A DNA stretch of 64,000 nucleotides from an uncultured virus (IMG/VR IMGVR_UViG_3300002835_000117). Lineage: Duplodnaviria; Heunggongvirae; Uroviricota; Caudoviricetes. Positions within the stretch are counted from its first letter, which is position 1, and every line of letters begins with the position of its first letter. Positions 1 to 31,610 of the stretch are shown here, one piece after another. The translations under genes were made by a program, and so were the position numbers. Below the pieces are notes generated by a model. It was not told where the DNA came from. It made no database searches and saw nothing but the letters and a program-made list of their open reading frames with translations. The stretch lies in the IMG/VR virus record IMGVR_UViG_3300002835_000117; one strand, given 5' to 3'.

Positions 1-1300
1 TCTGAATAATTTGTTGTAACGATGATATTTGTATTAGCAGTAGCCGCAGTTAGTTCTTCATATGAAGTAACTTCTCCATAATTGGTTGTGGCGATGATTG
101 CTGTAGTTTCATCGTATACTGTGTTTTCTGAATAATTAGTTGTGGCTCCTATGTTCGTTACAACTACTGTAGTTTCGTCATATACTGTGTTCTCTGAATA
201 ATTTGTTGTAACGATGATATTTGTATTAGCAGTAGCCGCAGTTAGTTCTTCATATGAAGTAACTTCTCCATAATTGGTTGTGGCGATGATTGCTGTAGTT
301 TCATCGTATACTGTGTTTTCTGAATAATTAGTTGTGGCTCCTATGTTCGTTACAACTACTGTAGTTTCGTCATATACTGTGTTCTCTGAATAATTTGTTG
401 TAACGATGATATTTGTATTAGCAGTAGCCGCAGTTAGTTCTTCATATGAAGTAACTTCTCCATAATTGGTTGTGGCGATAATTGCTGTAGTTTCATCGTA
501 TACTGTGTTCTCGGTGTAGTTAGTTAAAGCCCCAATATTAGTAATTGCTATAGTATTTTCATCATAAACTGTGTTTTCTGAGTAATTAGTTAATGCAATA
601 ATATTAGTGATAGCCACTGTTGTTTCGTCATATACTGTGTTTTCTGAATAATTTGTTGTAACGATGATATTTGTATTAGCAGTAGCCGCAGTTAGTTCTT
701 CATATGAAGTAACTTCTCCATAATTGGTTGTGGCGATAATTGCTGTAGTTTCGTCATAAACAGTATTTTCAGTATAATTAGTTGTGGCTCCAATGTTAGT
801 TATAACCACGGTAGTTTCATCGTATACTGTGTTTTCCGAGTAATTTGTAGTAACGACGATATTAGTATTGGCCGTAGCAGCAGTTAACTCGTTGTAAGAT
901 GTTACTTCTCCATAATTAGTTGTTGCACCAATTGCTGTTGTTTCATCGTATACTGTGTTTTCGGTATAGTTAGTTAAAGCAATAATATTAGTGATAGCCA
1001 CTGTTGTTTCATCATAAACAGTGTTCTCTGAATAATTTGTTGTGACAATGATATTTGTATTAGCAGTGGCAGCAGTTAGTTCTTCATAGGCAGTGTTGAC
1101 CAAATAATTTGTTGTTGCAGCAATGTTAGTTGTTTCGTCATACACAGTTGTATCATTATAATTTGTTGTAACAATGATATTTGTGTTAGCAGTGGCAGCA
1201 GTTAGTTCATCATAGGCAGTGTTGACCAAATAATTTGTTGTTGCAGCAATGTTAGTTGTTTCGTCATACACAGTTGTATCTAAATAATTAGTTACAACTA
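1..1300. repeat. Hierarchical coding tandem repeat: 192-bp (64-aa) units built from ~21-22-aa subunits
   Basis: tctgaataatttgttgtaacgatg recurs at 1, 193 and 385 with essentially identical intervening sequence; more diverged copies continue to ~1300. Confidence 0.9.
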
Positions 1301-2141: not shown

Positions 2142-5036
2142 TTAAGTGGTCAACGATAATCTTGTTAGTTTAATAACGTGTGATGTTGTTGTGTTTGCTG
2201 CCCAAGTTAACGTTAAATTGCCTCCTGTATAGGTAGCATCAAAAGTGCCCAATTGACCGCTGTTGGTTAAAATTCCATATTCGTTAATATATGCATAAGT
2301 TCCATCATGCATTATACTAATTTCACTTACATGAATAGATTTTGTTGGAGTTGTCTCCATTGTTACCTGGCAGTAGTATTTTGCCGATCTATATGTAGTT
2401 CCACTAAAACTATCTAAGTTTTGTGTTGCAATACTTGTAATTGGATTGCTGGTCCAACTTGCTAATAAAGTATTATTAAAGAAGAATCCGTTTACTGTAG
2501 ATCCTGTTGTAGCAGACTGTGTTGCACCTGCTGTAATTAATCCACCTGCATAAACATCTTTTACGACACTTAGACCACCGCTAATTCTTACTGCACCATC
2601 ATTTGTTGCTACAGCATTTGTGGTATTAGTAAAGTTAGAAATTCCTGTTGCTGTCAACGTTGTTGCAGTAGTATTTCCAGCAATTACCAATGCACCGCCA
2701 ATGTCAACTCTTCCAGTTCCAGGATTTACTGTTACGCTACTAGTTGTGTAGAATGATTCAGCAGTGGCACTAGCGTTATTACTATCGACAAAAGTTAGAT
2801 AGTGTGTGGCATTTGTTATTCTTTCAATTGTATTAAGAGAACTTGCAGTAGTTACAGAACCAATAATTGTTCCGTAAATACTTCCGCCAACATATAAGTT
2901 ACCACCAATACCTGCACCACCATAAACTTGCAAAGCACCAGAATTTGTCGAAGTTGCTGCTGTGGTATTTGTAACTGTAAATTGATTAGATACTCTAGTA
3001 TACCCTGTTGAAGCCCCAATAGTTATTGCTGTTGCTGCACCACCAAAATTAATAGTTGTAGCAGTAGTGTTAACAAGGTTAAATGTTGTTTGATTTGTAT
3101 AAAGATCGCCACCATTAACAAATACATCGCCTGAAGCAACAATGCTTCCACCGGCTGTAATTGTTTGTCCTACAAATAAGTGTTTACCAATTCCGGCTCC
3201 ACCAACAACTTGTAATGCACCAGTGGCTGTACTTGATGCATCAGTTTCATTGAAAACATCAAGTATTCCTCCAATATTCACAGCACCGCCAATACCAACT
3301 CCACCTGCTACTTGTAAGGCACCGGTAGTTGTATTAGAACTTGCGGTAGTATCGGCTAAAATAATTCCGCCTGTTTTAAAAATACCGTAAGTAGTTCCAG
3401 TATATACACCGGTGGATAAATTTTCACTGCCGTTACTAAACCACTCTAAGTATTTGCTGGTATTGTTGATTCCTAAAAATGCATCTTTGTCTGCACTATC
3501 GTAATAATGGAATACAAATCCAATATCTTTACCGTCATTGACTGTCCAAGCATGATCAATTCCTGTACTTCCTGCAGGTGCATGAATATTTAGAATATTA
3601 TCTGTGTAGACAGTATTGGTACTGTACACAAATGTAGATGTTCCAGAAAAAACTACATTATTATTAAATACCGCAGGGCCTGTTACGTATAAACTACTTC
3701 CAATACCCACACCCCCTGCTACATACAAAGCGTTGGTAGCAACGGTTGTAGTGCTGGCAGTCAAATCTAAAATATCAACGGATCCGCCAACAACTAGATC
3801 TCTACCAATCCCTGCGCCGCCGCGAACTTGTAACGCACCCGTCAATGTCGAAGTTGCGTTTGTTGTATCAGTTACAGTAAATTGATTTCTAACTCTGGTA
3901 TATCCACTGCCGTTTGCACCAATTGTAATGGCTGTACCTAAGTCGCCAATATTAATTGTAGTTGCAGTTTGAGGTAAAATATTAAATGTGGTTGCTGTAC
4001 TGTATAAGTTGCCCCCGTTGACCGTTAGATTTCCAGAAATAATTTCATATCCTAAAATATGAGAATTATTTCCTACTACTATATCTTTCCCAACTCCTAT
4101 ACCACCTACTACCTGTAATGCACCTGTGGCAGTAGATCCTGCATTGGTTGTGCCATTAATTTTAGCGTTATCAACATTGAATGTATTACTGGTGTAATTA
4201 TATTCAAATCCTGCTTCGAATGCTGTAGATCCAGCACCTGTTTGATAAGGAATTTGATACTGTGCGCCACCTGCTATGTTAGATGCTGTGGAAGCATTAC
4301 CTGCAACTAACGAACCAGTACTGACCCATGTTGCTGTTGTTCCGTTCGATTGTAAAAGAAACCCAGCAGTTCCAATCGCAATAAAATCTGTAACTCCAGG
4401 ATTTCTTTGGTATGGAATACTTCCTGTTGCGCCGCCGGCTAAGTTACTTGCAGTAGTTATACTTCCAGTTATACTACCACCAACAAATAAATTACCACCA
4501 ATACCAACACCGCCTACTACTGTCAATGCACCAGTTGTTGTAGATGTTGATTGTGTATTATTTGTTATATTTGTAATACCGCTAGCAGTTAGTGTTGTAA
4601 CTGTGGTAGCAGCACCAGAAATAGCACCTAATGTGCTTTGACCTGTTACGTTTAATGTTCCGCTAGCAGTTAAATTTGTAACTGTGGTAACAGTAGCATT
4701 TACAGCACCTAATGTGCTTTGACCTGTTACGTTTAATGTTCCGCTAGCAGTTAAATTTGTAACTGTGGTAACAGTAGCATTTACAGCACCTAAAGTGCTT
4801 TGCCCTGTTACTGTTAATGCTGTTGCTGTAGTTACCTGCAGTCGTGTTCCGCCACTAACAGTCAATGCACCGTAAATATCCGCTTGTTGCCCTACAATTA
4901 AATTTTTAGCAACCCCTGCTCCGCCGTCGACTTGTAAAGCCGCAGTATTACCAGTCGATGAAGTTACTGTCGAAGTTCCTAGAACAGTTAAACCGGATTT
5001 TACAAAAAAATCTCTTTGAACTGATGTTAACGACAT
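2142..5036 (-). CDS. Tail fibre-like protein with STxTGALxVxGGxGI repeats
   Basis: About 8 copies of the GAL(Q/T/Y)VxGGxGI repeat, Thr/Gly-rich; C-terminal DSF...YRSAKY domain shared with 5052..6068. Confidence 0.7.
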   Translation of the reverse strand: MSLTSVQRDFFVKSGLTVLGTSTVTSSTGNTAALQVDGGAGVAKNLIVGQQADIYGALTVSGGTRLQVTTATALTVTGQSTLGAVNATVTTVTNLTASGTLNVTGQSTLGAVNATVTTVTNLTASGTLNVTGQSTLGAISGAATTVTTLTASGITNITNNTQSTSTTTGALTVVGGVGIGGNLFVGGSITGSITTASNLAGGATGSIPYQRNPGVTDFIAIGTAGFLLQSNGTTATWVSTGSLVAGNASTASNIAGGAQYQIPYQTGAGSTAFEAGFEYNYTSNTFNVDNAKINGTTNAGSTATGALQVVGGIGVGKDIVVGNNSHILGYEIISGNLTVNGGNLYSTATTFNILPQTATTINIGDLGTAITIGANGSGYTRVRNQFTVTDTTNATSTLTGALQVRGGAGIGRDLVVGGSVDILDLTASTTTVATNALYVAGGVGIGSSLYVTGPAVFNNNVVFSGTSTFVYSTNTVYTDNILNIHAPAGSTGIDHAWTVNDGKDIGFVFHYYDSADKDAFLGINNTSKYLEWFSNGSENLSTGVYTGTTYGIFKTGGIILADTTASSNTTTGALQVAGGVGIGGAVNIGGILDVFNETDASSTATGALQVVGGAGIGKHLFVGQTITAGGSIVASGDVFVNGGDLYTNQTTFNLVNTTATTINFGGAATAITIGASTGYTRVSNQFTVTNTTAATSTNSGALQVYGGAGIGGNLYVGGSIYGTIIGSVTTASSLNTIERITNATHYLTFVDSNNASATAESFYTTSSVTVNPGTGRVDIGGALVIAGNTTATTLTATGISNFTNTTNAVATNDGAVRISGGLSVVKDVYAGGLITAGATQSATTGSTVNGFFFNNTLLASWTSNPITSIATQNLDSFSGTTYRSAKYYCQVTMETTPTKSIHVSEISIMHDGTYAYINEYGILTNSGQLGTFDATYTGGNLTLTWAANTTTSHVIKLTRLSLTT
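4623..4793. repeat. Exact 81-bp tandem duplication (27 aa: GQSTLGAVNATVTTVTNLTASGTLNVT)
   Basis: agcacctaa starts at 4623, 4704 and 4785 with identical intervening sequence. Confidence 0.9.
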
Positions 5037-5051
5037 AGTGTTTTTATTCCT

Positions 5052-6068
5052 TTAGGTTGTTATTCCTGTCCTCAATACCTTAATTGTTTTATTTGTCGCT
5101 GTATTTGCAGTAAAATACAAATTAACAACACCACCCACAAATTCTGTATCAAAATTTCCTAAATATCCATTCGAGGTGACTACACCATATTCAGTTGCAA
5201 AGACATTTCCATTGTTATCTGCTACTAATAAAATTTCAATTAATTCGAAATCTGCTCCTGATCCAGTGCCCTCATCTATTTGAATTAAATATTTCGCTCC
5301 TCTATACTGCTGTGTGTTATAACTATCTATTATTGTCGGATCATCTGTATTTACCAAAGTTTTTGTAGAATCAAGAACTGCATCTGCAATTTGAATTGAT
5401 TCGGCATTTAATCTTCCACCTAAACCAATACCTCCTGATACAATCAACGCTCCAGTATCAGTAGTTGTACTGTTTGTTGTGTTTAAGACTTTAATTATAT
5501 TTGTAGTAGAATTTCCTCGATCAGTTACTGATTGTAATGTAGAAATATTATTAATAATCAGGTACGTCATAGTTCCTGTAGATTCAGTAACGATATCTAT
5601 GTCATCACCGTCTTGGAATCCTTCTGCAAAAGTAGAACTAGTTAATACTGGTTGACCGCCAGAATACAAAATTCCACCTAAATATAGATCTCCGCTAATT
5701 GCAGCACCACCAGTAACTACTAGAGCACCCGATGATGTATTAGTTGATGGAATTCCGCTTGTTACATACAAAGTTTCAAAACTTCCACTTGAGTATATGA
5801 TTGTCGAATTTGTCGAAGTTGAAACAATATTTCCGCCAATGTATAAATTTCCGCCGGCACCTATTCCGCCGGATACTATTAATGCACCACTAGTTGTATT
5901 AACAGATTGAGAATTTGATGTTGTAATAATAGTTCCGGTAGAATTAACCGTAGATGCACTAACATTTGATCTTAAAATTAACCAAGCCGTACCGTTCCAG
6001 ATATATGTTGTACTACCTATTACATAGGTATCTCCGATTTGAGGATTTGATGGGAAACCTAATGGCAT
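5052..6068 (-). CDS. Tail fibre-like protein
   Basis: N-terminal FPSNPQIGDTY...YIWNGTAW motif, three GALxVxGG repeats, C-terminal YRGAKY domain paralogous to 2142..5036. Confidence 0.65.
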   Translation of the reverse strand: MPLGFPSNPQIGDTYVIGSTTYIWNGTAWLILRSNVSASTVNSTGTIITTSNSQSVNTTSGALIVSGGIGAGGNLYIGGNIVSTSTNSTIIYSSGSFETLYVTSGIPSTNTSSGALVVTGGAAISGDLYLGGILYSGGQPVLTSSTFAEGFQDGDDIDIVTESTGTMTYLIINNISTLQSVTDRGNSTTNIIKVLNTTNSTTTDTGALIVSGGIGLGGRLNAESIQIADAVLDSTKTLVNTDDPTIIDSYNTQQYRGAKYLIQIDEGTGSGADFELIEILLVADNNGNVFATEYGVVTSNGYLGNFDTEFVGGVVNLYFTANTATNKTIKVLRTGITT

Positions 6069-14715: not shown

Positions 14716-15366
14716 TCAATGATTGTCAACTAAGACATCAGTACTGTTTGCTGCATCTAAATTCCATCCAACAGAAGCACCGCTGTTAAAGACAAAACTT
14801 CCACTGGCTGTAGATTGAACAACTACGGCTCTGCGGGCAGTTAATTTTTTAACCCAATAAGTACTTCCATTTCCATCTGTTGCAAGAATATTCATCTGAC
14901 CTGCAACTAGTTGATCTGTATTAGTACTGACTAATCTTGCTACATCTGTACCATTTGCTGTTTGAACACGGTATTTTTTACTTGCTACCTGTTCGTCGAT
15001 GTCTGCAACTAATGCAGAACCGCCTGTTAAAAATGCAGTAGCACGAATAACGTTGCTTACGCTAGTTGTTAATGTAGCAGTTGCACTTCCAATAACACTC
15101 ATACTAGTTCCAGTAAACGAAACTGATGGTACTGTTAGGTATCCAGATCCTGCAGAATCTACTGTTACGCTTGTTACTGTGTTTCCAGTTTTTACAGCAG
15201 TACCAGCAGCAGTTGTTCCGCCCGGCAAGTCCGGTGCACTGAAAACAACGGTAACTGTTAATGTAGATTCAGGGTTTGTTCCAAGTGTAACTAAACTAAC
15301 ACCTTCACCACCTGTACCTGTTCCTTTAGGTACTCCGAAATATTTTGATTTAATAGGACGTCCCAT
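14716..15366 (-). CDS. Putative capsid decoration/head-associated protein
   Basis: Immediately downstream of the MCP, with its own late-promoter core, strong AAGGAG SD and own terminator; Thr/Val/Gly-rich beta composition with a GSGY motif. Confidence 0.55.
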   Translation of the reverse strand: MGRPIKSKYFGVPKGTGTGGEGVSLVTLGTNPESTLTVTVVFSAPDLPGGTTAAGTAVKTGNTVTSVTVDSAGSGYLTVPSVSFTGTSMSVIGSATATLTTSVSNVIRATAFLTGGSALVADIDEQVASKKYRVQTANGTDVARLVSTNTDQLVAGQMNILATDGNGSTYWVKKLTARRAVVVQSTASGSFVFNSGASVGWNLDAANSTDVLVDNH

Positions 15367-15445
15367 TTGTTTTTCTCCTTATATTTGGCGTTCTAGGCCA
15401 TACGCGGTTGGACCTCCGCATAATACTCTAGACTCTGTATTTAAT
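15367..15445 (-). promoter_or_regulatory. Late promoter core (ATTAAATA, 15438-15445) plus structured 5' leader
   Basis: Leader reads TCTAG-AGTAT-TATGCGG-AGGTCCAA-CCGCGTA-TGGC-CTAGA-ACGCC, then AAGGAG SD; can fold as an interrupted hairpin. Confidence 0.5.
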
Positions 15446-25430: not shown

Positions 25431-25649
25431 TTGTATCTAGACGTTGAAGGTATTGATAAGTTTATCAAAGAATACGATAAAGATACAAAAGCCTTAAAAT
25501 CAGAACTTTACAAAATTTGTTGGTACATGAGGGGCGGAATAACTTTATCTGAAGCCTATGAACTTAGTCAAGAAGAAAGAATGTTAATTTCTAAAATCAT
25601 TGAAGATAATTTAGAAACAACTAAAAAAACTGGACTACCTTTCTTTTAA
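25431..25649 (+). CDS. gp51-like chaperone segment, probably translated as a -1 frameshift extension of 24556..25425
   Basis: CWYMRGGITLSEAYELSQEERMLI motif; only a TTG start with no obvious SD; frame is -1 relative to upstream and open back through the T-TTT-TTC heptamer at 25413-25419. Confidence 0.65.
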   Translation: MYLDVEGIDKFIKEYDKDTKALKSELYKICWYMRGGITLSEAYELSQEERMLISKIIEDNLETTKKTGLPFF

Positions 25650-26356
25650 ATGTCCATATTTAAAAATTTACTGTAAAATTTTGATTCAGGAACTGCTTGT
25701 TGTTTAGGTTGTAACAAGGCAGCAGTTTTCTTCTTACCACCTTGTTGTACTTGTAAATTAGGTGTCCCAGTTGCAGGCGCTGTTGTAGGTGCTGCTCCAG
25801 TTGCAGGCGCTGCTCCTCTGCTTTTCTTTGCAACAATAGCGTCTACATTTTTCTTAACACTTTGCAAATCTCTTGTTCTTAAAGTTGGTATTGCTTGATT
25901 AATTTGTGTTACGGTAACTTTTGGTGCTGCCCCAGTTGTAGGTGCTGTTCCCGCAGCAGGTGCTGTTGCAGGTGCTGTTCCCGCAGCAGGTGCTGTTCCC
26001 GCAGCAGGTGCTGTTCCCGCAGCAGGTGCTGTTCCCGCAGCAGGTGCTGTTCCCGCAGCAGGTGCTGCCCCAGTTGTAGGTGCTGTTCCCGCAGCAGGTG
26101 CTGTTGCAGGTGCTGCCCCAGTTGTAGGTGCTGTTCCCGCAGCAGGTGCTGCTCCACCGCCGACTGAACTTTTTCCTGATTGCCAACCTTGCTTTACTCC
26201 TTGCCAGAAATTTTTACCTGCTTGAACTGCTCCGCCAGCAGTTGCACCTAATGCTGTACCAGTAGCAGTAGCAGCTCTACCAATTCCTTGTCCGACTTGC
26301 GCTGCTGTTAGTTCATCAAGTTGTTGGTTTTCAATAATAAGTTCTTCAATACGCAT
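25646..26356 (-). CDS. Ala/Pro/Thr-rich candidate internal head protein
   Basis: N-terminus MRIEELIIENQQLDE (repeated hydrophobic-x-E); AAGTAP repeats; AAGGA SD. Confidence 0.6.
   Translation of the reverse strand: MRIEELIIENQQLDELTAAQVGQGIGRAATATGTALGATAGGAVQAGKNFWQGVKQGWQSGKSSVGGGAAPAAGTAPTTGAAPATAPAAGTAPTTGAAPAAGTAPAAGTAPAAGTAPAAGTAPAAGTAPATAPAAGTAPTTGAAPKVTVTQINQAIPTLRTRDLQSVKKNVDAIVAKKSRGAAPATGAAPTTAPATGTPNLQVQQGGKKKTAALLQPKQQAVPESKFYSKFLNMDI
25922..26153. repeat. 18-bp coding tandem repeats (AAGTAP / TTGAAP)
   Basis: gcagcaggtgctgttccc repeated consecutively with variants. Confidence 0.9.
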
Positions 26357-26366
26357 TTTATATCCT

Positions 26367-27869
26367 TCAAGGAGTAGTAGGTTGATTAGATCTCTTCGAT
26401 AATACGTTATTTACTGTTTTTTGAATACTTTGTAAATCTCGTAATCTTAAAATTTTAATTGCTTGATTAATTTGAGCCACAGTAAGTTTTGTAGATGGCT
26501 GACTTGATGTTTGAGATACCGGTGAAGATTGAGTTGATGCAATATTCATAGATTGAAAAGTTGACGAAATAATAGAATCGTCAACTCCGGCATTTTTTAA
26601 AATATCAGCAATAGCATTGCTGTCTGTCGGACTTCCTGCCGCCTTCCATGCTTTCATTAACTTATCGGCGGTAATTTTAGTAGTTAAATTTGAACCAAAT
26701 TGTTTAATTGTATCTGCAATACCTTCTTGAACTAGATATTTTCTATCTACAGTATAGAATATTTTTTTAATTTGTTGAAAAGATAAACTTTCCGGCGTTG
26801 ATTGCTGCGTTGGTTTTTGATTTCCAACCGCACCTGTAACAGCGCCTTGTGCAGCCACTGCCAAAGCGTCAGACGCAGCCATTACACTTTTAGCACCATC
26901 TACAATTGCTTGTCTTGCATTTTCATCTTGTGCTAATTGAGCAGCATAACCAGGATCGGCTAATTTGGCTGCTGCATCTTTTGCCTGCTGAAACAATGCT
27001 TCTGCTTGACTATATTGACCGTTCCTCCAAGCCTCTGCTGCTTGATTCCATGCACCACGTATAGGTTCTAAATCTTCAGGTTTGCCTATTACATCTCGTA
27101 AATTTTGAAATGTAGAAGGTCCCGTACCACTAACCATAAAGGAAAGATTAAGTCTACGTGCCCCAGGAAATAAGTTATCAGCAACCATTTTTAACCCACT
27201 GCCTAAGAAATCTCCAATTTTATCAATACTCCAACCGGCTAAAGCACCAACTGCGGCTGCTTTAGCACCCTTGCCAATTGCAGTCGAAAGTTTTTCACCT
27301 TTCATTAATTCAGTAGTGCCTCTCAGTATTTGACCTGCGATAGCACCACCTAAAGGTCCTCCTGCTAATGATGCCACAGCAGTTAATACACCAATAATTA
27401 CTGCGGTTTTTCCAGGATTTGCTTTAGCCCATTCTCCTGCTTGAGTTAAGTTTTGAGTTAAATTTGGAAACTTAGAACTAATCTTTGCTTTTAGTTCTTC
27501 AAATTTTTGATCAAACGCCTGTACAGGTTTAGTGTTTTGCGCCCACTGCCCTGCTTTGTTAATAATATCGTTAACTTTTTGAACTGCTTGGACAGGCAAT
27601 TTTGCAACATCTACGGCTTTTCCCAATCCAGTTCTGTTAGATCCACTAGCAGTTGCTGATTGCTCTACATTTTTAAATAATTGAGATATTTGATCTGTAG
27701 TTAATGTTGCTTCAATTAAAGGTAAAAACTCTCTATGTATTCTTTTAATTATTGTATTTTGTTCTTCAGTCAAACCTCGGCATATATTCTCTAAGAGAAT
27801 TCGGCTTTCGTTTAATTTTTCTTCTACAATTAATCTTTGAGAAAAAGTTAAAGGCATAATTTTATCCAC
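26367..27869 (-). CDS. Candidate internal head/ejection protein (start probably ATG at 27857 or GTG at 27869)
   Basis: Perfect TATAAATA upstream; hydrophobic-x-E sites; Gly-zipper hydrophobic segment; C-terminal motif shared with 25646..26356. Confidence 0.6.
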   Translation of the reverse strand: MDKIMPLTFSQRLIVEEKLNESRILLENICRGLTEEQNTIIKRIHREFLPLIEATLTTDQISQLFKNVEQSATASGSNRTGLGKAVDVAKLPVQAVQKVNDIINKAGQWAQNTKPVQAFDQKFEELKAKISSKFPNLTQNLTQAGEWAKANPGKTAVIIGVLTAVASLAGGPLGGAIAGQILRGTTELMKGEKLSTAIGKGAKAAAVGALAGWSIDKIGDFLGSGLKMVADNLFPGARRLNLSFMVSGTGPSTFQNLRDVIGKPEDLEPIRGAWNQAAEAWRNGQYSQAEALFQQAKDAAAKLADPGYAAQLAQDENARQAIVDGAKSVMAASDALAVAAQGAVTGAVGNQKPTQQSTPESLSFQQIKKIFYTVDRKYLVQEGIADTIKQFGSNLTTKITADKLMKAWKAAGSPTDSNAIADILKNAGVDDSIISSTFQSMNIASTQSSPVSQTSSQPSTKLTVAQINQAIKILRLRDLQSIQKTVNNVLSKRSNQPTTP

Positions 27870-27879
27870 TCTATATCAC

Positions 27880-27887
27880 TATTTATA
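27880..27887 (-). promoter_or_regulatory. T4 late promoter consensus TATAAATA
   Basis: Exact match 10 nt upstream of the 27869 ORF start. Confidence 0.75.
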
Positions 27888-27888
27888 A

Positions 27889-28328
27889 ACGAACTGCGTT
27901 CGTATGCTTCTTCGTCTAAGGACTCGAAGCATATTTAGATAGTTAAGAGAGATATATCATCTAGATTAAGTGGTCACTCTTTGCCCGAGCAGGGCAAAAA
28001 AATAACTGAACATCATCTGAGTTGCACAGTCACATAGCATTACTGCATTACAGTGGCGGTCGACCGGTACCACGAGCAGCGTCTTTATTCGACGGCAGGA
28101 GCATCTAGGCATGCTATCACCTATATGTCCGTTAGGGAATTACCCTTCTTTTTGCCTATTCAATCCTCTTCAAACAACCAAATCGCAGGGCTTAGTAGCG
28201 ATCCTCATCCTTTCGGGTAGTGGTTGAGTACTCACAGCGGCGAGAGTTTTCCGTTCCCTGCGATCCGAGATCCAGGTATTGGGCATAAGAAATTAGCCTA
28301 CGCTGAGCCTTTACCGCTTAAAAGTGCC
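27889..28328 (-). ncRNA. Putative large structured non-coding RNA (~440 nt), family not recognised
   Basis: Longest intergenic stretch in the window, visibly GC-enriched, no ORF in the track, many complementary segments including two potential pseudoknots; begins right after the GIY-YIG stop codon. Confidence 0.65.
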
Positions 28329-28754
28329 TTAAGATTTTAATATGTGTGAGCCATGGACACGGACTTGTATATGCCCGTTATAATATTCGTTTGTTTCTAA
28401 AACTCGCCTTGAAAATTGTTCTCTTGCCTCAATGTAACTGCATTCTGCTTTAGATTTACAAAAATAAAGTATTTCTCTTATAAAATTTTCTGTGCCTAGT
28501 TGTACTACATCTTTATTCAATTGTTCGTTTGAGCCATAATAATCTTGCCAGTCGCTGTCTATTTTGCTTCGAATTTTCTTTTTCTTTTTTGTGCCGTTCT
28601 TTAACTTTACAGTCTTGTAGGTCGTTTTACTAAATTTTGCCAATTTTTTGCCAATGTATTTTCTATTTGTTATTTTGTTAGTAATGATATAAACAAAGCC
28701 TACACAATCTTCGGGTAATTCTGTTATGGTATTATTTTGATATAGCCAAGTCAT
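28329..28754 (-). CDS. Minimal GIY-YIG (Seg-like) nuclease-domain protein
   Basis: GFVYIITNKITNRKYIGKK, YYGS, F.REIL, E..EQF and YYN motifs; Lys-rich insert; no C-terminal DNA-binding module. Confidence 0.8.
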   Translation of the reverse strand: MTWLYQNNTITELPEDCVGFVYIITNKITNRKYIGKKLAKFSKTTYKTVKLKNGTKKKKKIRSKIDSDWQDYYGSNEQLNKDVVQLGTENFIREILYFCKSKAECSYIEAREQFSRRVLETNEYYNGHIQVRVHGSHILKS

Positions 28755-29022: not shown

Positions 29023-30787
29023 AATCAATATCATTTGAATAACTTGTAAATCCGTTTTCTTTTGTTACTTTTAATACGTTGTTAACTCGTCCAATCAATT
29101 CATCTTTATGAGATATTAAGTATATATTCTTATTTCTATCCCTGGCCATTTTTTTCAATACCGCTAAACTGGCTTCAACGCCGGCAAAGTCCATTCCTGC
29201 ATCAACCAATTCATCAATAAACAACAAATTGATACTTTGGTACAGTCCTTCCCAAACATCTCTAAAAGCAAAACTCATTGAAAGGATCAGTCTATTTCGT
29301 TCTCCCCTGCTTAAATTATCAAAGTCTAATTCTTGACCTAATTGAGTAATTTCTACAGTTAAATCGTTTTGAAACACAACCTTGTGAGGAAGCCCTAACT
29401 TGTCAATGTAATAGGTTAATCTTTTGTTTAGGTAATTTAAATTTTGATCTATAATTTTCTTTCTGATAAAACTATCTTTATTAGTTAATAATTTTAATAA
29501 AAACTCTTGATGATCTTTTAATTTTGTTAGATCGTTAATGGCAGTCCAATCGACTGTTTGAATTGCAGTTTTCTTTAAATCATCTATTTGTTCTTGATAA
29601 GGATTTTTTTCGTCTGCTTTTTCTAACAAAGATTTTTCTAAATTATCGAGATTATTTTTGTGTCCCAGTGCTTCTGCTTCTGTTTCGTAAAATGTGTTAG
29701 GTTTAGGAAAAACATTTTTTTCGCTAATTTCTTCTGATATTTTTTCTAAATCATTTACTACCTTATCAAAGTAAGTTTGTGCATCGGCTAAATTATTCAT
29801 AGCAGTTGCAGTCATTTCTTGGTGTTTATGATCGTGCAACTCTTGTTCACACGCCGGGCAAGTTTTACTAGATAGAGACTCTACTTCTCGAACATATTTG
29901 TCTCTAGTTTTTTGAGCCTGTATAACTGCGCTTTCTAGGGTTGCTTTTTGTTTGTTAAGACCTCGAATTTTTGTATCAAGTTCTTCCCAAAGTTTTAAAT
30001 TTTTATGATTTTCTAATTCTTGAATAATATCTACTGATTCGAGATTAACAATGGCTCGACCTAAACTTTCCAATTCTTGTTGATGTTTAGTATCCCATAG
30101 ATTACTTTTTAATTGCAAACTATCAATACTTTTTTGTATGTTTTCGTTTGATGTTTTAATAGTTTCAATTTTTAAATTTTCTGCTAAAATTTTATCTTTG
30201 GTATTTTTGATTTCAATTTTTAAATTTTCTGCTTTTGTAGAAAGAATAGTAATTCCAAGAAGTTGTTCAATAATTTCTCGTTGATCTGCCGCTCTCATTG
30301 CAAGGAACGGTTCAGTGTATGTATTAAGGGCAACAAGATGTTTAAACATTGAATGACTCATTTCGAGCATTTCTTCAATTGTTTTTTGAGTTTCTCTACT
30401 ATCTCCTTGACTTTCGTCTTCATCTTTGGCTTTTAATTCTTTGTTATTAACAAACAATTTTAAAATGTTAGATTTTCTGCCACGCTCAATTCGATAGTGT
30501 GCGTTGTTTTTTTCAAAGTCAACAGTAACTAACATGTTTTTACCGTTGATTTTATTAATAAGATTTTCTTTTTTAATATTAGTTAATGCTTGGCCGTACA
30601 ATGCGTAACTTAATGCATTAATAATTGTAGTTTTACCGGTACCGTTTCTTGAACCAGTATCGTCTCCGCCAAGGTCTAAGTTTGATCCAAGCACAAGAGT
30701 TAAATGATCTTTATTAAAATTTACTGCCTGAGTTTGATTACCCACGCTCATGAAATTTTTAACAGTAATAGTTTTTAGTTTAAACAT
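29009..30787 (-). CDS. gp46: Recombination endonuclease ATPase subunit (T4 gp46 / SbcC-Rad50-like)
   Basis: Walker A NGTGKTT, zinc hook CPAC, signature LSRGE, Walker B LLFIDE, H-loop ISH. Confidence 0.95.
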   Translation of the reverse strand: MFKLKTITVKNFMSVGNQTQAVNFNKDHLTLVLGSNLDLGGDDTGSRNGTGKTTIINALSYALYGQALTNIKKENLINKINGKNMLVTVDFEKNNAHYRIERGRKSNILKLFVNNKELKAKDEDESQGDSRETQKTIEEMLEMSHSMFKHLVALNTYTEPFLAMRAADQREIIEQLLGITILSTKAENLKIEIKNTKDKILAENLKIETIKTSNENIQKSIDSLQLKSNLWDTKHQQELESLGRAIVNLESVDIIQELENHKNLKLWEELDTKIRGLNKQKATLESAVIQAQKTRDKYVREVESLSSKTCPACEQELHDHKHQEMTATAMNNLADAQTYFDKVVNDLEKISEEISEKNVFPKPNTFYETEAEALGHKNNLDNLEKSLLEKADEKNPYQEQIDDLKKTAIQTVDWTAINDLTKLKDHQEFLLKLLTNKDSFIRKKIIDQNLNYLNKRLTYYIDKLGLPHKVVFQNDLTVEITQLGQELDFDNLSRGERNRLILSMSFAFRDVWEGLYQSINLLFIDELVDAGMDFAGVEASLAVLKKMARDRNKNIYLISHKDELIGRVNNVLKVTKENGFTSYSNDIDYVEH

Positions 30788-31610
30788 TGATTGATTCTAA
30801 GTTTTTTCTTTCAAATTCACCAAAAATTTCAAGAACATCTTTGGGAATTTCTTTTTCAGGGTCAACCTTTACATAAGGATTGTTTCGATTGAACATATCT
30901 TCACCTTTTAAAATTTTTTCTTTGATGTGTTCGGGTGTTTTAAATTTGTCTTGATTAAATTCTTGGTGAGCAAATGTTTCGATTTTATATTGAATAGTTT
31001 TTACATCACCCCAATAAGTTAGGTGCCATCCGCCTCTAGAAATTAAACCATAACCGTATTTTTCATTTCTTAGTTGTTGCGGGCTTAGTTCTTTAACAAT
31101 TTTGTTAGTGCTGATTGTAGTACCTCTTATTGGGACAACCTGTTTTTGTCTAAAATTATATGCATAATGATCTTGCTCAACTGCTAATCTATCCCAACCT
31201 TTAGAAAAATATTCTTTGGCAATGTTAATACATTCTTTATGAGGAATTTCGTCAAGGTCACTAATCATAATAATATCGTGGTCATCGAATAAATTTAATG
31301 CTTTGCTAATATAGTTTCTTTGAGCATTTTCTTGTTGCCACGGCCCTGTGTCATAATCTCTTTCCCAGGAAGGTAATTTATTATAATTAAACTTTTCTCG
31401 ATCTACAATAAAGGGAAAATAGAGAATTTTATCTAAAAATTCTCTATACCTAAATAAATTTTCTGCAAAGTGCAAAGGTTTTTCATGACCACTTTGTGTA
31501 ATGTTCGATTCTACAAGAACAAAAAAGTCGACATGATCTTTTAGATATTGTAATCTTCCTTTTAATAATTCAAATTCATTAAAAAACATAAAACAGTCTA
31601 CTATTTTCAT
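30780..31610 (-). CDS. Glycosyltransferase family 17 (GnT-III-like)
   Basis: DCFMFFNEFELL..R, FVLVES..T.SG..K, E..QRN, ISDLDEIP (DxD), GGWHL, KI..FAHQE motifs. Confidence 0.85.
   Translation of the reverse strand: MKIVDCFMFFNEFELLKGRLQYLKDHVDFFVLVESNITQSGHEKPLHFAENLFRYREFLDKILYFPFIVDREKFNYNKLPSWERDYDTGPWQQENAQRNYISKALNLFDDHDIIMISDLDEIPHKECINIAKEYFSKGWDRLAVEQDHYAYNFRQKQVVPIRGTTISTNKIVKELSPQQLRNEKYGYGLISRGGWHLTYWGDVKTIQYKIETFAHQEFNQDKFKTPEHIKEKILKGEDMFNRNNPYVKVDPEKEIPKDVLEIFGEFERKNLESINV

What the first reader, a model, noticed from the sequence alone, without database searches (positions are those of the whole stretch)
27889..28754. Minimal GIY-YIG nuclease followed immediately by a ~440-nt highly structured non-coding element: candidate undescribed ribonucleoprotein system
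Seen: in a genome whose gaps are otherwise mostly under ~130 nt and AT-rich, a GC-enriched ~440-nt gap starts right at the GIY-YIG stop. Complementary segments (plus-strand coordinates): 28182-90/28256-64 (ATCGCAGGG/CCCTGCGAT), crossed by 28175-80/28221-26 (CAACCA/TGGTTG), giving a pseudoknot; a CC-GAAA-GG tetraloop on the minus strand near 28209-16; hairpin 28134-46; an interrupted hairpin ~28098-28130 whose loop (28111-17) pairs with 28034-40, a second pseudoknot; bulged hairpin 28053-73; hairpins 27980-98, 27903-33 and 27889-903. The protein has only the nuclease domain plus a Lys-rich insert and lacks the C-terminal DNA-recognition modules of typical homing GIY-YIG enzymes. Established: compact nucleases paired with adjacent structured RNAs exist (IscB/TnpB with omega RNA, HEARO RNA with HNH). 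Inference: the RNA may be the partner, scaffold or guide of this protein, or an independent large phage ncRNA or ribozyme. It ends the gp55-gp47-gp46 operon, suggesting a role in recombination, replication or packaging. I do not recognise it as a known family.
Basis: partly seen in the sequence, partly recalled or inferred. Interest (0 to 1): 0.85.

Follow-up and report, generated by a model that had tools for sequence, protein, structure and literature searches.

The report
Large structured RNA of freshwater phages
The 440-base gap behind a small nuclease gene in this lake phage encodes a large, intricately folded RNA; its first third was already catalogued as an orphan motif, it also occurs without the nuclease in bacterial mobile elements, and its job is still unknown.

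Summary
Window 27888-28329 (minus strand) is a conserved, GC-enriched, non-coding stretch that starts at the stop codon of a 141-aa SegE-type GIY-YIG gene. It ends at a hairpin just before a TATAAATA late-promoter box. On 44 non-redundant relatives, 91 base pairs are 94% paired, against 34-46% when the partners are slid, and 62 pairs show compensatory changes. Three pseudoknots are supported.

It is not wholly unknown. The 5' third (28172-28308) is Rfam RF01718, Polynucleobacter-1 RNA (101 bits, cut-off 37), an orphan motif of 2010. The remaining ~300 nt match nothing in Rfam. This part is the more widely shared core, because other phages join it to different 5' domains.

The nuclease link is strong in phages: 72 of 75 and 62 of 70 RNA-first loci. 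It is not obligate. A sister clade of GIY-YIG genes lacks the RNA downstream. Two loci carry a PD-(D/E)XK nuclease instead. About 30 Burkholderiales loci carry the RNA in integrase-bearing elements; none of the 17 with enough flanking DNA has a GIY-YIG gene.

One feature is unexplained: two 7-8-nt tracts are identical within each RNA but differ between RNAs.

Best reading: an independent large ncRNA of phages and mobile elements (0.55). RNP with the nuclease: 0.15.

The parts
28329..28754 (-). 141-aa single-domain GIY-YIG nuclease gene (SegE-type) with a Lys-rich beta-hairpin insert
   Evidence: PF19835 E 1.3e-30 over residues 3-129. AlphaFold2 model pLDDT 80.9. Best structural matches are all GIY-YIG domains: I-TevI Z 8.4, PD-T4-3 7.7, UvrC-N 5.9, T4 EndoII 5.4.
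27888..28329 (-). Full ~440-nt structured non-coding RNA. It runs from the last base of the GIY-YIG stop codon to the terminal hairpin.
   Evidence: Conserved over its whole length in 44 non-redundant viral loci. 91 pairs, 94.2% paired, 62 with compensatory changes, 0 of 500 shuffles as good. G.U 353 against A.C 56 cells, so the fold belongs to this strand.
28172..28308 (-). 5' domain, equal to Rfam RF01718 Polynucleobacter-1 RNA (helices P1-P5)
   Evidence: cmscan 101 bits, gathering score 37, E 1e-20, model positions 1-141 of 141.
28313..28317 (-). 5' strand of pseudoknot PK1. It lies upstream of the Rfam model and pairs with the P3 loop at 28237-28241.
   Evidence: 5 pairs, 89.9% of cells paired, 3 pairs with compensatory changes. 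Coordinates.
27979..28146 (-). 3' core domain: P6, P7, pseudoknot PK2 (28112-17 with 28034-39), P8/P10 pseudoknot, P9, P11. It includes the invariant GGUACCG..ACCGCC.
   Evidence: Covariation per helix and coordinates. No Rfam match at E up to 10. Covariance model R1 finds it in other 5'-domain contexts and in bacterial loci.
28011..28023 (-). Direct repeat 1 (AACUC + AGAUGAU + G), with a variable 7-nt core
   Evidence: The core is identical to that of repeat 2 in every RNA, with at least 12 different cores across phage and bacterial copies.
27955..27967 (-). Direct repeat 2 (AAUCU + AGAUGAU + A)
   Evidence: Same as repeat 1. Columns 411/471 and 412/472 of A1 carry the same base in 95% of rows.
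27888..27904 (-). Terminal hairpin P14 (terminator-like, short U run)
   Evidence: 7 pairs, 4 with compensatory changes. The same palindrome scores as a terminator on the + strand only.
27880..27887 (-). TATAAATA box (T4-type late promoter consensus) ahead of the 500-aa ORF
   Evidence: NATAAATA found directly after the RNA in 34 of 44 loci. The reading as a late promoter rests on recalled T4 biology.

Best explanation
The gap is the gene for one large (~440 nt), multi-pseudoknotted non-coding RNA of T4-like freshwater phages. Its 5' third is the orphan Rfam motif Polynucleobacter-1. Its 3' two thirds are an uncatalogued core domain that other phages combine with other 5' domains.

Shown: the RNA-strand-specific fold, its extent, its modular build, and its presence in phages and in integrase-bearing elements of Burkholderiales.

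Inferred:
- It is transcribed as the tail of the gp46/GIY-YIG transcription unit. It begins at the stop codon of whatever ORF precedes it.
- Transcription stops at the terminal hairpin in front of the late promoter of the next gene.
- It is kept as a stable RNA that acts in trans, independently of the GIY-YIG protein.
- The two identical 7-8-nt tracts of the 3' core are the most likely specificity elements. They would contact two copies, or the two symmetric halves, of a nucleic-acid or protein partner that differs from element to element.
- The adjacency to the nuclease gene is inherited gene order within one phage lineage.
For: Structure and strand:
- 94.2% of cells paired against 34-46% when partners are slid; 62 of 91 pairs with double changes; 0 of 500 shuffles as good.
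- G.U 353 against A.C 56 cells.
- Gap runs are not biased to multiples of three: 290, 770 and 463 for remainders 0, 1 and 2.

Known 5' domain: RF01718 at 101 bits.

Independence from GIY-YIG:
- 33 of 120 genome contigs pattern hits are true 5' domains.
- 21 of the 30 bacterial-type loci also give a full-length match to the 3'-core model at the expected place and strand, 13 of them at E below 0.01.
- None of the 17 bacterial loci with enough flank encodes a GIY-YIG relative within 2.5 kb of the RNA.
- Their neighbours are DUF6641 (4 of 4 tested), a tyrosine recombinase (6 of 6 tested) and an AAA ATPase.
- 10 of 76 evaluable GIY-YIG loci at 73-79% identity have no RNA downstream. Nine of them form one clade.
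- Melnitz, C48C1 and ACP17 have the protein but no RNA.
- Unrelated genes sit between GIY-YIG and the RNA in L050 and L068.
- GIY-YIG sequences do not track the RNA 5'-domain type, which switches at least 3 times among near-identical proteins.

Boundary: terminal hairpin, then NATAAATA, in 34 of 44 loci.
Against: - No transcript was seen, so the start, the end, stability and any processing are all inferred.
- The adjacency to a small nuclease gene is stronger than plain synteny predicts. It persists across three different 5' domains. It also persists across a switch to a PD-(D/E)XK nuclease in L031 and L474.
- All phage loci belong to one related group, so the counts are not independent events.
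- No partner for the twin tracts was found in the RNA, the window or the flanks.
- The bacterial 3' domains score weakly (16-34 bits). They are accepted partly because of their constant position.
Confidence: 0.55

Rival explanations
1. Ribonucleoprotein. The RNA is the partner (scaffold, guide or regulator) of the minimal nuclease encoded directly upstream, which lacks a DNA-recognition domain of its own. The twin tracts would act as guides.
For: - GIY-YIG ends 40-130 nt before the core pattern in 72 of 75 RNA-first loci. It is the ORF directly upstream in 62 of 70 3'-core-first loci.
- 66 of 76 evaluable protein-first loci carry the RNA.
- The adjacency survives three 5'-domain types. In L031 and L474 a PDDEXK_15 nuclease takes the same place.
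- The protein is only the catalytic domain plus a basic beta-hairpin arm.
Against: - The RNA occurs in bacterial elements with no GIY-YIG relative within 2.5 kb of the RNA (17 of 17 examined).
- A GIY-YIG clade at 73-79% identity has no RNA downstream.
- The basic arm is also present in RNA-less homologues such as Melnitz, C48C1 and ACP17.
- The protein does not co-vary with the RNA 5'-domain type.
- Unrelated genes are inserted between the two in L050, L068, L274, L316 and L321.
- Homologues occur in 491 phage records, but the RNA gave no blastn match in that collection.
Confidence: 0.15
2. Selfish nuclease beside its target. The small nuclease genes (GIY-YIG, PD-(D/E)XK) are free-standing homing-type genes. 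They sit next to a highly conserved RNA gene because they cut that gene in rival phages and are copied in with it, as T4 SegB does in the tRNA cluster.
For: - SegB lies among tRNA genes, recognises the conserved T-psi-C stem-loop sequence, and drives inheritance of the tRNA region (PMC2330249, abstract read).
- Two nuclease families alternate at the same position.
- RNA 5' domains are exchanged at the nuclease/RNA boundary between otherwise near-identical loci, as co-conversion would produce.
- The closest structural match is the I-TevI catalytic domain, Z 8.4.
Against: - The nuclease is nearly universal rather than sporadic (72 of 75).
- It is under strong conservation: 71-92% identity with 60 invariant columns.
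- It has no DNA-binding domain.
- Relatives at other genome positions are common in cultured phages: 491 records, placed next to ribonucleotide reductase genes in Melnitz and C48C1. This looks more like a housekeeping phage nuclease of the T4 EndoII kind.
Confidence: 0.12
3. Cis-acting element: a structured 3' UTR that stabilises or processes the upstream operon mRNA, or a leader or riboswitch for the downstream gene (the 2010 guess for the motif).
For: - The RNA always starts at the stop codon of the preceding ORF, whatever that ORF is.
- Weinberg et al. 2010 rated the motif as probably cis-regulatory (PMC2864571, table entry read).
- An AAGGCA-like motif recurs at the 5' edge and at the domain junction, and could be a processing site.
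Against: - A hairpin and a NATAAATA box separate the RNA from the next ORF in 34 of 44 loci.
- Downstream genes differ: the 500-aa ORF here, an opposite-strand baseplate gene in L031, and a recombinase about 850 nt away in bacteria.
- In bacteria the RNA is divergent from its upstream gene and carries its own conserved TAAATA box.
- 440 nt with three pseudoknots is far beyond what a stabiliser needs.
Confidence: 0.08
4. DNA-level element, such as a replication origin, a packaging or recombination site, or iteron-like direct repeats, rather than an RNA.
For: - The two direct repeats are identical within an element but variable between elements, as iterons or recombinase core sites are.
- In bacteria a recombinase gene lies nearby, and inverted repeats flank the region in 2 of 4 loci examined.
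Against: - The helices are strand-specific: G.U 353 against A.C 56 cells.
- They include three pseudoknots, which double-stranded DNA cannot use.
- The 5' domain matches a curated RNA family.
Confidence: 0.03

Closest known systems
Polynucleobacter-1 RNA motif (Rfam RF01718; Weinberg et al. 2010, PMC2864571)
   Same: Window 28172-28308 (-) matches the whole 141-position model at 101 bits. The habitat is the same: Burkholderiales and fresh water (table entry; lake-water runs).
   Different: - The catalogued motif is only the 5' third.
- Here it carries an extra 5' pseudoknot strand and about 300 nt of further covarying structure.
- It is mainly a phage RNA: at least 119 viral stretches.
- It is not placed as a leader of a constant gene.
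Omega RNAs of IscB/TnpB (OMEGA systems; HEARO RNA). Recalled; papers seen only as search listing.
   Same: A structured RNA of several hundred nucleotides begins at the 3' end of a compact nuclease gene.
   Different: - The nuclease is GIY-YIG, not RuvC/HNH.
- There is no transposon end and no terminal guide.
- There are two internal identical tracts instead.
- RNA and nuclease each occur without the other.
- No Rfam match to HEARO or any omega RNA family.
T4 SegB in the tRNA gene cluster (PMC2330249, abstract read)
   Same: A GIY-YIG gene abuts structured-RNA genes in a T4-like phage, and the region shows signs of modular exchange.
   Different: - SegB has a DNA-recognition part and is absent from close relatives.
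- This protein is a bare, highly conserved domain present in 72 of 75 loci.
T4 endonuclease II (DenA), a single-domain GIY-YIG nuclease (PMC2764454, abstract start seen in listing; gene neighbourhood recalled)
   Same: A single ~140-aa GIY-YIG domain without a separate DNA-binding domain. Cultured relatives of this protein lie beside ribonucleotide reductase genes, as I recall denA does in T4.
   Different: Structural similarity is modest: Z 5.4, below I-TevI at 8.4. There is no sequence match in the PDB search.
Large orphan ncRNAs of phages and prophages (GOLLD, ROOL; recalled)
   Same: Several-hundred-nucleotide, highly structured, function-unknown RNAs carried by phages and integrated elements.
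   Different: No Rfam match to those families. This RNA is smaller, modular in its 5' domain, and has the twin identical tracts.

Membership tests
Rfam RF01718 Polynucleobacter-1 RNA | Covariance-model score at or above the curated gathering score (37 bits) | tested here: met
   101 bits, E 1.1e-20 over the whole window.
Rfam RF01718 Polynucleobacter-1 RNA | Full-length match with the family's helices kept | tested here: met
   Model positions 1-141 of 141. P1, P3, P4 and P5 covary and P2 is invariant in 44 relatives.
OMEGA-type RNA-guided nuclease (IscB/TnpB with omega RNA) | RNA gene overlaps or abuts the 3' end of the nuclease ORF | tested here: met
   The conserved RNA starts at the stop codon.
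OMEGA-type RNA-guided nuclease (IscB/TnpB with omega RNA) | Nuclease and RNA co-occur obligately | tested here: not met
   17 of 17 bacterial loci have the RNA but no GIY-YIG relative within 2.5 kb of it. 10 of 76 close GIY-YIG loci lack the RNA.
OMEGA-type RNA-guided nuclease (IscB/TnpB with omega RNA) | Conserved scaffold plus a variable guide segment matching a target | tested here: inconclusive
   Two identical variable 7-8-nt tracts exist. No complementary target was found in the RNA, the window or the flanks.
OMEGA-type RNA-guided nuclease (IscB/TnpB with omega RNA) | RNA-dependent DNA cleavage | not testable with these tools
   Needs biochemistry.
Free-standing GIY-YIG homing endonuclease (Seg type) | GIY-YIG catalytic domain | tested here: met
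   PF19835 E 1.3e-30. Fold match to I-TevI, Z 8.4.
Free-standing GIY-YIG homing endonuclease (Seg type) | Separate C-terminal DNA-recognition domain | tested here: not met
   141 aa, with the domain covering residues 3-129. The C-terminal 19 residues are low-confidence coil.
Free-standing GIY-YIG homing endonuclease (Seg type) | Sporadic presence among close relatives | tested here: not met
   Present in 72 of 75 loci. 71-92% identity.
Group I intron carrying a GIY-YIG ORF | Intron core recognisable and a host gene split into exons | tested here: not met
   No group I family among matches at E up to 10. The flanking ORFs are separate genes, with a late-promoter box before the downstream one.
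Riboswitch or cis-regulatory leader | Lies directly upstream of a constant regulated gene, with an expression platform at its start | tested here: not met
   A hairpin and a NATAAATA box intervene in 34 of 44 loci. Downstream genes vary.
T4 EndoII (DenA)-type nuclease | Single-domain GIY-YIG of about 136 aa with an EndoII-like fold | tested here: inconclusive
   2wsh_A Z 5.4, rmsd 3.5 over 82 residues, ranked below I-TevI, PD-T4-3 and UvrC.

The most novel reading that the evidence does not exclude
The shared 3' core is a programmable specificity module. Its two identical, freely variable 7-8-nt tracts would pair with the two symmetric half-sites (opposite strands) of a DNA target. That would direct a minimal enzyme encoded next to it, none of which has its own DNA-recognition domain: GIY-YIG or PD-(D/E)XK nucleases in phages, and a FimB/E-sized tyrosine recombinase in the Burkholderiales elements. 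It would be a new class of RNA-guided DNA-acting system shared by phages and mobile elements.
Probability: 0.08. Interest if true: 0.95.

Novelty: new variant of a known kind. Interest (0 to 1): 0.6.

Why it matters
- An orphan Rfam motif filed as a 141-nt probable cis-regulator turns out to be the exchangeable head of a ~440-nt multi-pseudoknot RNA. The RNA is abundant in lake T4-like phages and is shared with integrative elements of their probable Burkholderiales hosts.
- This corrects the family's extent, and probably its class. It also adds a sizeable member to the short list of large, ornate phage RNAs of unknown function.
- It exposes a rare signal: two tracts kept identical inside each RNA while drifting between RNAs. 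This points to a sequence-specific partner and gives a direct experimental handle.
- If the nuclease or recombinase neighbours prove to be functional partners, the consequence would be much larger.

Tried and rejected
- **Expression.** The look-up of sequencing runs listed 24 lake or freshwater DNA runs and no RNA holder, so I made no read-laying run. This says nothing about expression.
- **Void scans.** Two viral-contig scans used a pattern in which I had mis-counted the spacer of the GGUACCG..ACCGCC motif. One search gave 120 stretches, and 0 of 120 were confirmed by nhmmer. One search gave 0 stretches. Neither carries any evidence. The corrected pattern is.
- **Cultured phages.** blastn of the 459-nt gap against 50,697 phage records gave no match. 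Short, diverged RNAs can be missed at that sensitivity.
- **Folding energy.** z = -1.23. The minimum-energy fold uses the non-conserved 9-bp helix, so I did not use it as evidence.
- **Partner for the twin tracts.**
  - Nothing complementary was found in the 64-kb window.
  - A recurrent complement about 2.9 kb upstream in 14 loci turned out to be a conserved coding stretch, seen only for one tract variant.
  - Short complements inside the bacterial RNAs were inconsistent.
- **tRNA/tmRNA likeness.** ARAGORN found none in the window. A T-arm-like reading of repeat 2 fits one bacterial copy (L136) by eye but not the phage copies.
- **Foldseek.** It gave no PDB match at E of 0.001 or better. VIA-align was used instead.
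- **Sequence search of PDB.** Only a chance-level ribosomal protein hit.
- **Earlier notes of this scan.** Nothing on this RNA or genome.
- **Literature.**
  - 'Polynucleobacter-1': 1 paper.
  - 'DUF6641': 0 papers.
  - T4-like, freshwater and structured RNA terms: 16 papers, 12 listed, none on this RNA by title.
  - GIY-YIG with RNA-guided or omega RNA: 47 papers, 15 listed, none reporting an RNA-guided GIY-YIG by title or abstract start.
  - Supplements of PMC2864571 hold the seed alignment and the consensus drawing but no descriptive text on the motif.
- **Invertible-switch idea for the bacterial loci.** Similar inverted repeats flank the RNA in L136 and L138 but not in L140 or L182. I left it as a side note.
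Full report
**What is there**

The window is part of a T4-like, Kyanoviridae-like phage from lake water. On the minus strand lie, in order:
- a gp55-type late sigma factor
- gp47 (SbcD-like)
- a family-17 glycosyltransferase
- gp46 (SbcC-like)
- a 100-aa ORF
- a 141-aa protein made only of a SegE-type GIY-YIG domain (PF19835, E 1.3e-30, residues 3-129)

A 459-nt stretch without a long ORF follows, at 27870-28328. Its GC content is 0.445-0.47, against 0.28-0.35 in the neighbouring genes. Next comes a 500-aa ORF with no family match.

**Part of it is a known family**

Rfam's gathering-threshold scan places RF01718, Polynucleobacter-1 RNA, at 28172-28308 on the minus strand. The score is 101 bits against a cut-off of 37, and the match covers the whole 141-position model. 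Nothing else in the gap matches any of the 4227 families, even at E up to 10.

The only paper in the library that names the motif is Weinberg et al. 2010. I read its table entry: likely RNA, likely cis-regulatory, riboswitch uncertain, 16 sequences, Burkholderiales and fresh water/estuary. Its supplements hold the seed alignment and the consensus drawing but no descriptive text on the motif.

**The whole gap is one conserved, structured RNA**

Seventy-one of these loci reached far enough downstream to be compared. In them the conservation does not stop at the Rfam 3' end. It runs on for about 300 nt, with blocks as invariant as those of the 5' domain.

I derived helices from 44 sequences de-replicated at 95% and counted them with the pair-counting tool:
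- 91 pairs in 20 helix segments
- 94.2% of cells form standard pairs, against 34-46% when the 3' partners are slid by 1-3 columns
- 62 pairs show changes on both sides
- none of 500 shuffles reaches any of the five measures

I chose these pairs from the same alignment, which inflates the paired percentage. The compensatory changes and the slide control do not depend on that choice.

G.U cells outnumber A.C cells 353 to 56, so the fold belongs to the minus strand, the strand of the genes. Gap runs show no preference for multiples of three. Folding energy alone is not informative (z = -1.23).

**Anatomy**

The 5' domain holds:
- P1 (28299-303/28283-87)
- P2
- P3 (28243-46/28231-34)
- P4 (28221-26/28175-80)
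- the CC-GAAA-GG hairpin
- P5 (28198-203/28181-86)

A pseudoknot that the Rfam model lacks joins 28313-17, only 12 nt after the stop codon, to the P3 loop at 28237-41.

The 3' core holds:
- P6
- the long hairpin P7 (28118-30/28098-111), whose loop 28112-17 pairs with 28034-39
- P8 (28089-93/28059-63), which crosses P10 (28069-73/28053-57)
- P9
- P11 (27992-99/27979-86)
- P12, P13 and the terminal hairpin P14 (27888-27904)

A TATAAATA box sits at 27880-87. A NATAAATA box occupies this position in 34 of 44 loci. From what I recall of T4-like phages this is the late-promoter consensus, so the RNA ends where the next, late transcription unit begins.

That one is complementary in this phage but not conserved: 67.9% of cells pair, and 10 of 44 sequences keep at least 8 of 9 pairs.

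**An unexplained feature**

Two direct repeats lie at 28011-23 and 27955-67, on either side of P11. They share a 7-8-nt core that is identical within each RNA but differs between RNAs.
- Cores seen in phages: AGAUGAU, AGAUAAU, GCAUAAU, GGAUAAU, GGAUGAU, GAAUAAU, GGAUGAA and AGUCAAG.
- Cores seen in bacterial copies: AUCGAAAG, ACCAAAAG, GCAAAUG, GCAAAAU and AGCGAAAG.

This is parallel covariation, not complementary covariation. I found no complementary segment in the RNA, the window or the flanks. Possible explanations are a common external partner, a twofold-symmetric target, or a DNA-level role for the repeats.

**Is the RNA tied to the nuclease?**

Within the phage lineage, strongly.
- In 72 of 75 RNA-first loci with enough upstream DNA, a GIY-YIG gene ends 40-130 nt before the core pattern.
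- A second RNA-first sample used the 3' core. Of 70 loci, 62 have GIY-YIG directly upstream. In 21 of the 70 the 5' domain is not Polynucleobacter-1 but another structured domain with no Rfam match.
- A protein-first sample of the 80 closest GIY-YIG genes (71-92% identity in a 25-sequence subset) gives 66 of 76 evaluable loci with the RNA downstream.

The link is not obligate in either direction.
- Ten GIY-YIG loci have no RNA although at least 680 nt of downstream DNA was available. Nine of them form one well-supported clade, sister to the RNA-bearing clade. In those nine a membrane-protein gene follows at once.
- Cultured relatives Melnitz, C48C1 and ACP17 have the protein, including its basic arm, but no RNA.
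- In L050 and L068, unrelated genes separate the two.
- In L031 and L474 a PD-(D/E)XK nuclease (PF24608) stands in the GIY-YIG position.
- The 5' domain type switches at least three times among nearly identical GIY-YIG proteins.

**The RNA outside phages**

Thirty-three are true 5' domains by nhmmer.
- Three of the 33 are phage-like contigs binned into MAGs.
- The other 30 are from Burkholderiales-type genomes such as Limnohabitans, Polynucleobacter and Comamonadaceae.
- A covariance model of the phage 3' core finds a full-length match at the expected distance and strand in 21 of the 30, 13 of them at E below 0.01. The twin repeats and the terminal hairpins are recognisable.

The bacterial copies are therefore the same two-domain RNA, not the 141-nt motif alone.

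None of the 17 loci with enough flank encodes a GIY-YIG relative within 2.5 kb of the RNA. Their neighbours are:
- a divergent DUF6641 gene (4 of 4 tested)
- a conserved TAAATA box upstream of the RNA
- a short tyrosine recombinase of 189-221 aa about 850-930 nt downstream (6 of 6 tested; also similar to FimB/E-type invertases)
- an AAA ATPase

One locus ends near a transposase and a tmRNA-like fragment. These are integrated mobile elements.

**The protein**

The AlphaFold2 model (pLDDT 80.9) shows the GIY-YIG core with a long beta-hairpin, residues 40-66, that carries the Lys run. The four best structural matches are all GIY-YIG domains: I-TevI catalytic domain (Z 8.4), PD-T4-3 (7.7), UvrC N-terminal domain (5.9) and T4 EndoII (5.4).

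Several observations read more like a housekeeping phage nuclease than a selfish homing gene:
- its high conservation
- homologues in 491 phage records
- its position beside ribonucleotide reductase genes in cultured relatives

This is inference.

**Verdict**

- Best reading (0.55): a stand-alone large ncRNA of phages and mobile elements, with adjacency to the nuclease inherited within one lineage.
- Partnership with the nuclease: 0.15.
- A SegB-like nuclease-and-target arrangement: 0.12.
- A cis-acting role: 0.08.
- A DNA element: 0.03.

No transcript evidence could be obtained, so the start, the end and the stability of the RNA remain inferred.

The family is known for its 5' third. New as far as my searches reach are:
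- the full-length RNA
- its shared 3' core
- the exchangeable heads
- the twin tracts
- the dual phage and mobile-element distribution

Noticed in passing
window 15364-15444 (-): Second Rfam hit in the window: RF02980 freshwater-2 RNA, 51.9 bits against a cut-off of 49.9. It is another orphan motif from environmental sequences.
   Followed up: no
window 1-1293: Long tandem array with nested periods of 66, 126, 192 and 384 nt, up to 99% matching. Presumably a repeat-rich structural or fibre gene.
   Followed up: no
window 25646-26356 and 26367-27869 (-): The 236-aa and 500-aa ORFs after the RNA have no Pfam or PHROG match. They share a C-terminal motif (..VAQINQAI..LR.RDLQS..K.V). The shorter one is mostly Ala/Pro/Thr/Gly repeats.
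   Followed up: partly
L296:1618-2150, L303:1624-2200 (also L276, L278, L297, L312, L313, L306, L309): Two further kinds of structured 5' domain sit between the GIY-YIG stop codon and the shared 3' core. Neither matches Rfam at E up to 0.01. An AAGGCAA motif recurs at their edges and junctions.
   Followed up: partly
L031:3129-3647 and L474:1721-2242: A PDDEXK_15 nuclease (PF24608, E 1e-27 and 2.5e-29) occupies the place of the GIY-YIG gene directly upstream of the RNA.
   Followed up: partly
L138:3291-3315/4242-4266 and L136:3373-3386/4274-4287: In two of four bacterial loci examined, similar inverted repeats (TTTGGTT-type) bracket the promoter box plus the RNA gene, about 900 bp, just upstream of a FimB/E-sized tyrosine recombinase. 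This may be an invertible or excisable segment.
   Followed up: partly
L134-L201 (bacterial loci), about 95 nt upstream of the RNA 5' domain: A conserved (N)ATAAATA / CTAAATA box resembles the late-promoter box of T4-like phages. It raises the idea that the bacterial elements switch the RNA on when such a phage infects.
   Followed up: no
L195:6154-6224 and 5021-5947: A tmRNA-like fragment (18 bits, E 0.001) and an rve transposase lie on the upstream side of the Polynucleobacter rarus copy, as at the edge of an island integrated in ssrA.
   Followed up: no
L134 and L166 (one contig, about 9 kb apart); L152 and L201 (one genome): Some Burkholderiales genomes carry two copies of the RNA element. 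In L152 and L154 the sequence diverges right after the 5' domain, as if truncated or recombined.
   Followed up: no
window 30780-31610 (-): A family-17 glycosyltransferase gene (PF04724, E 3e-26) lies between gp47 and gp46.
   Followed up: no
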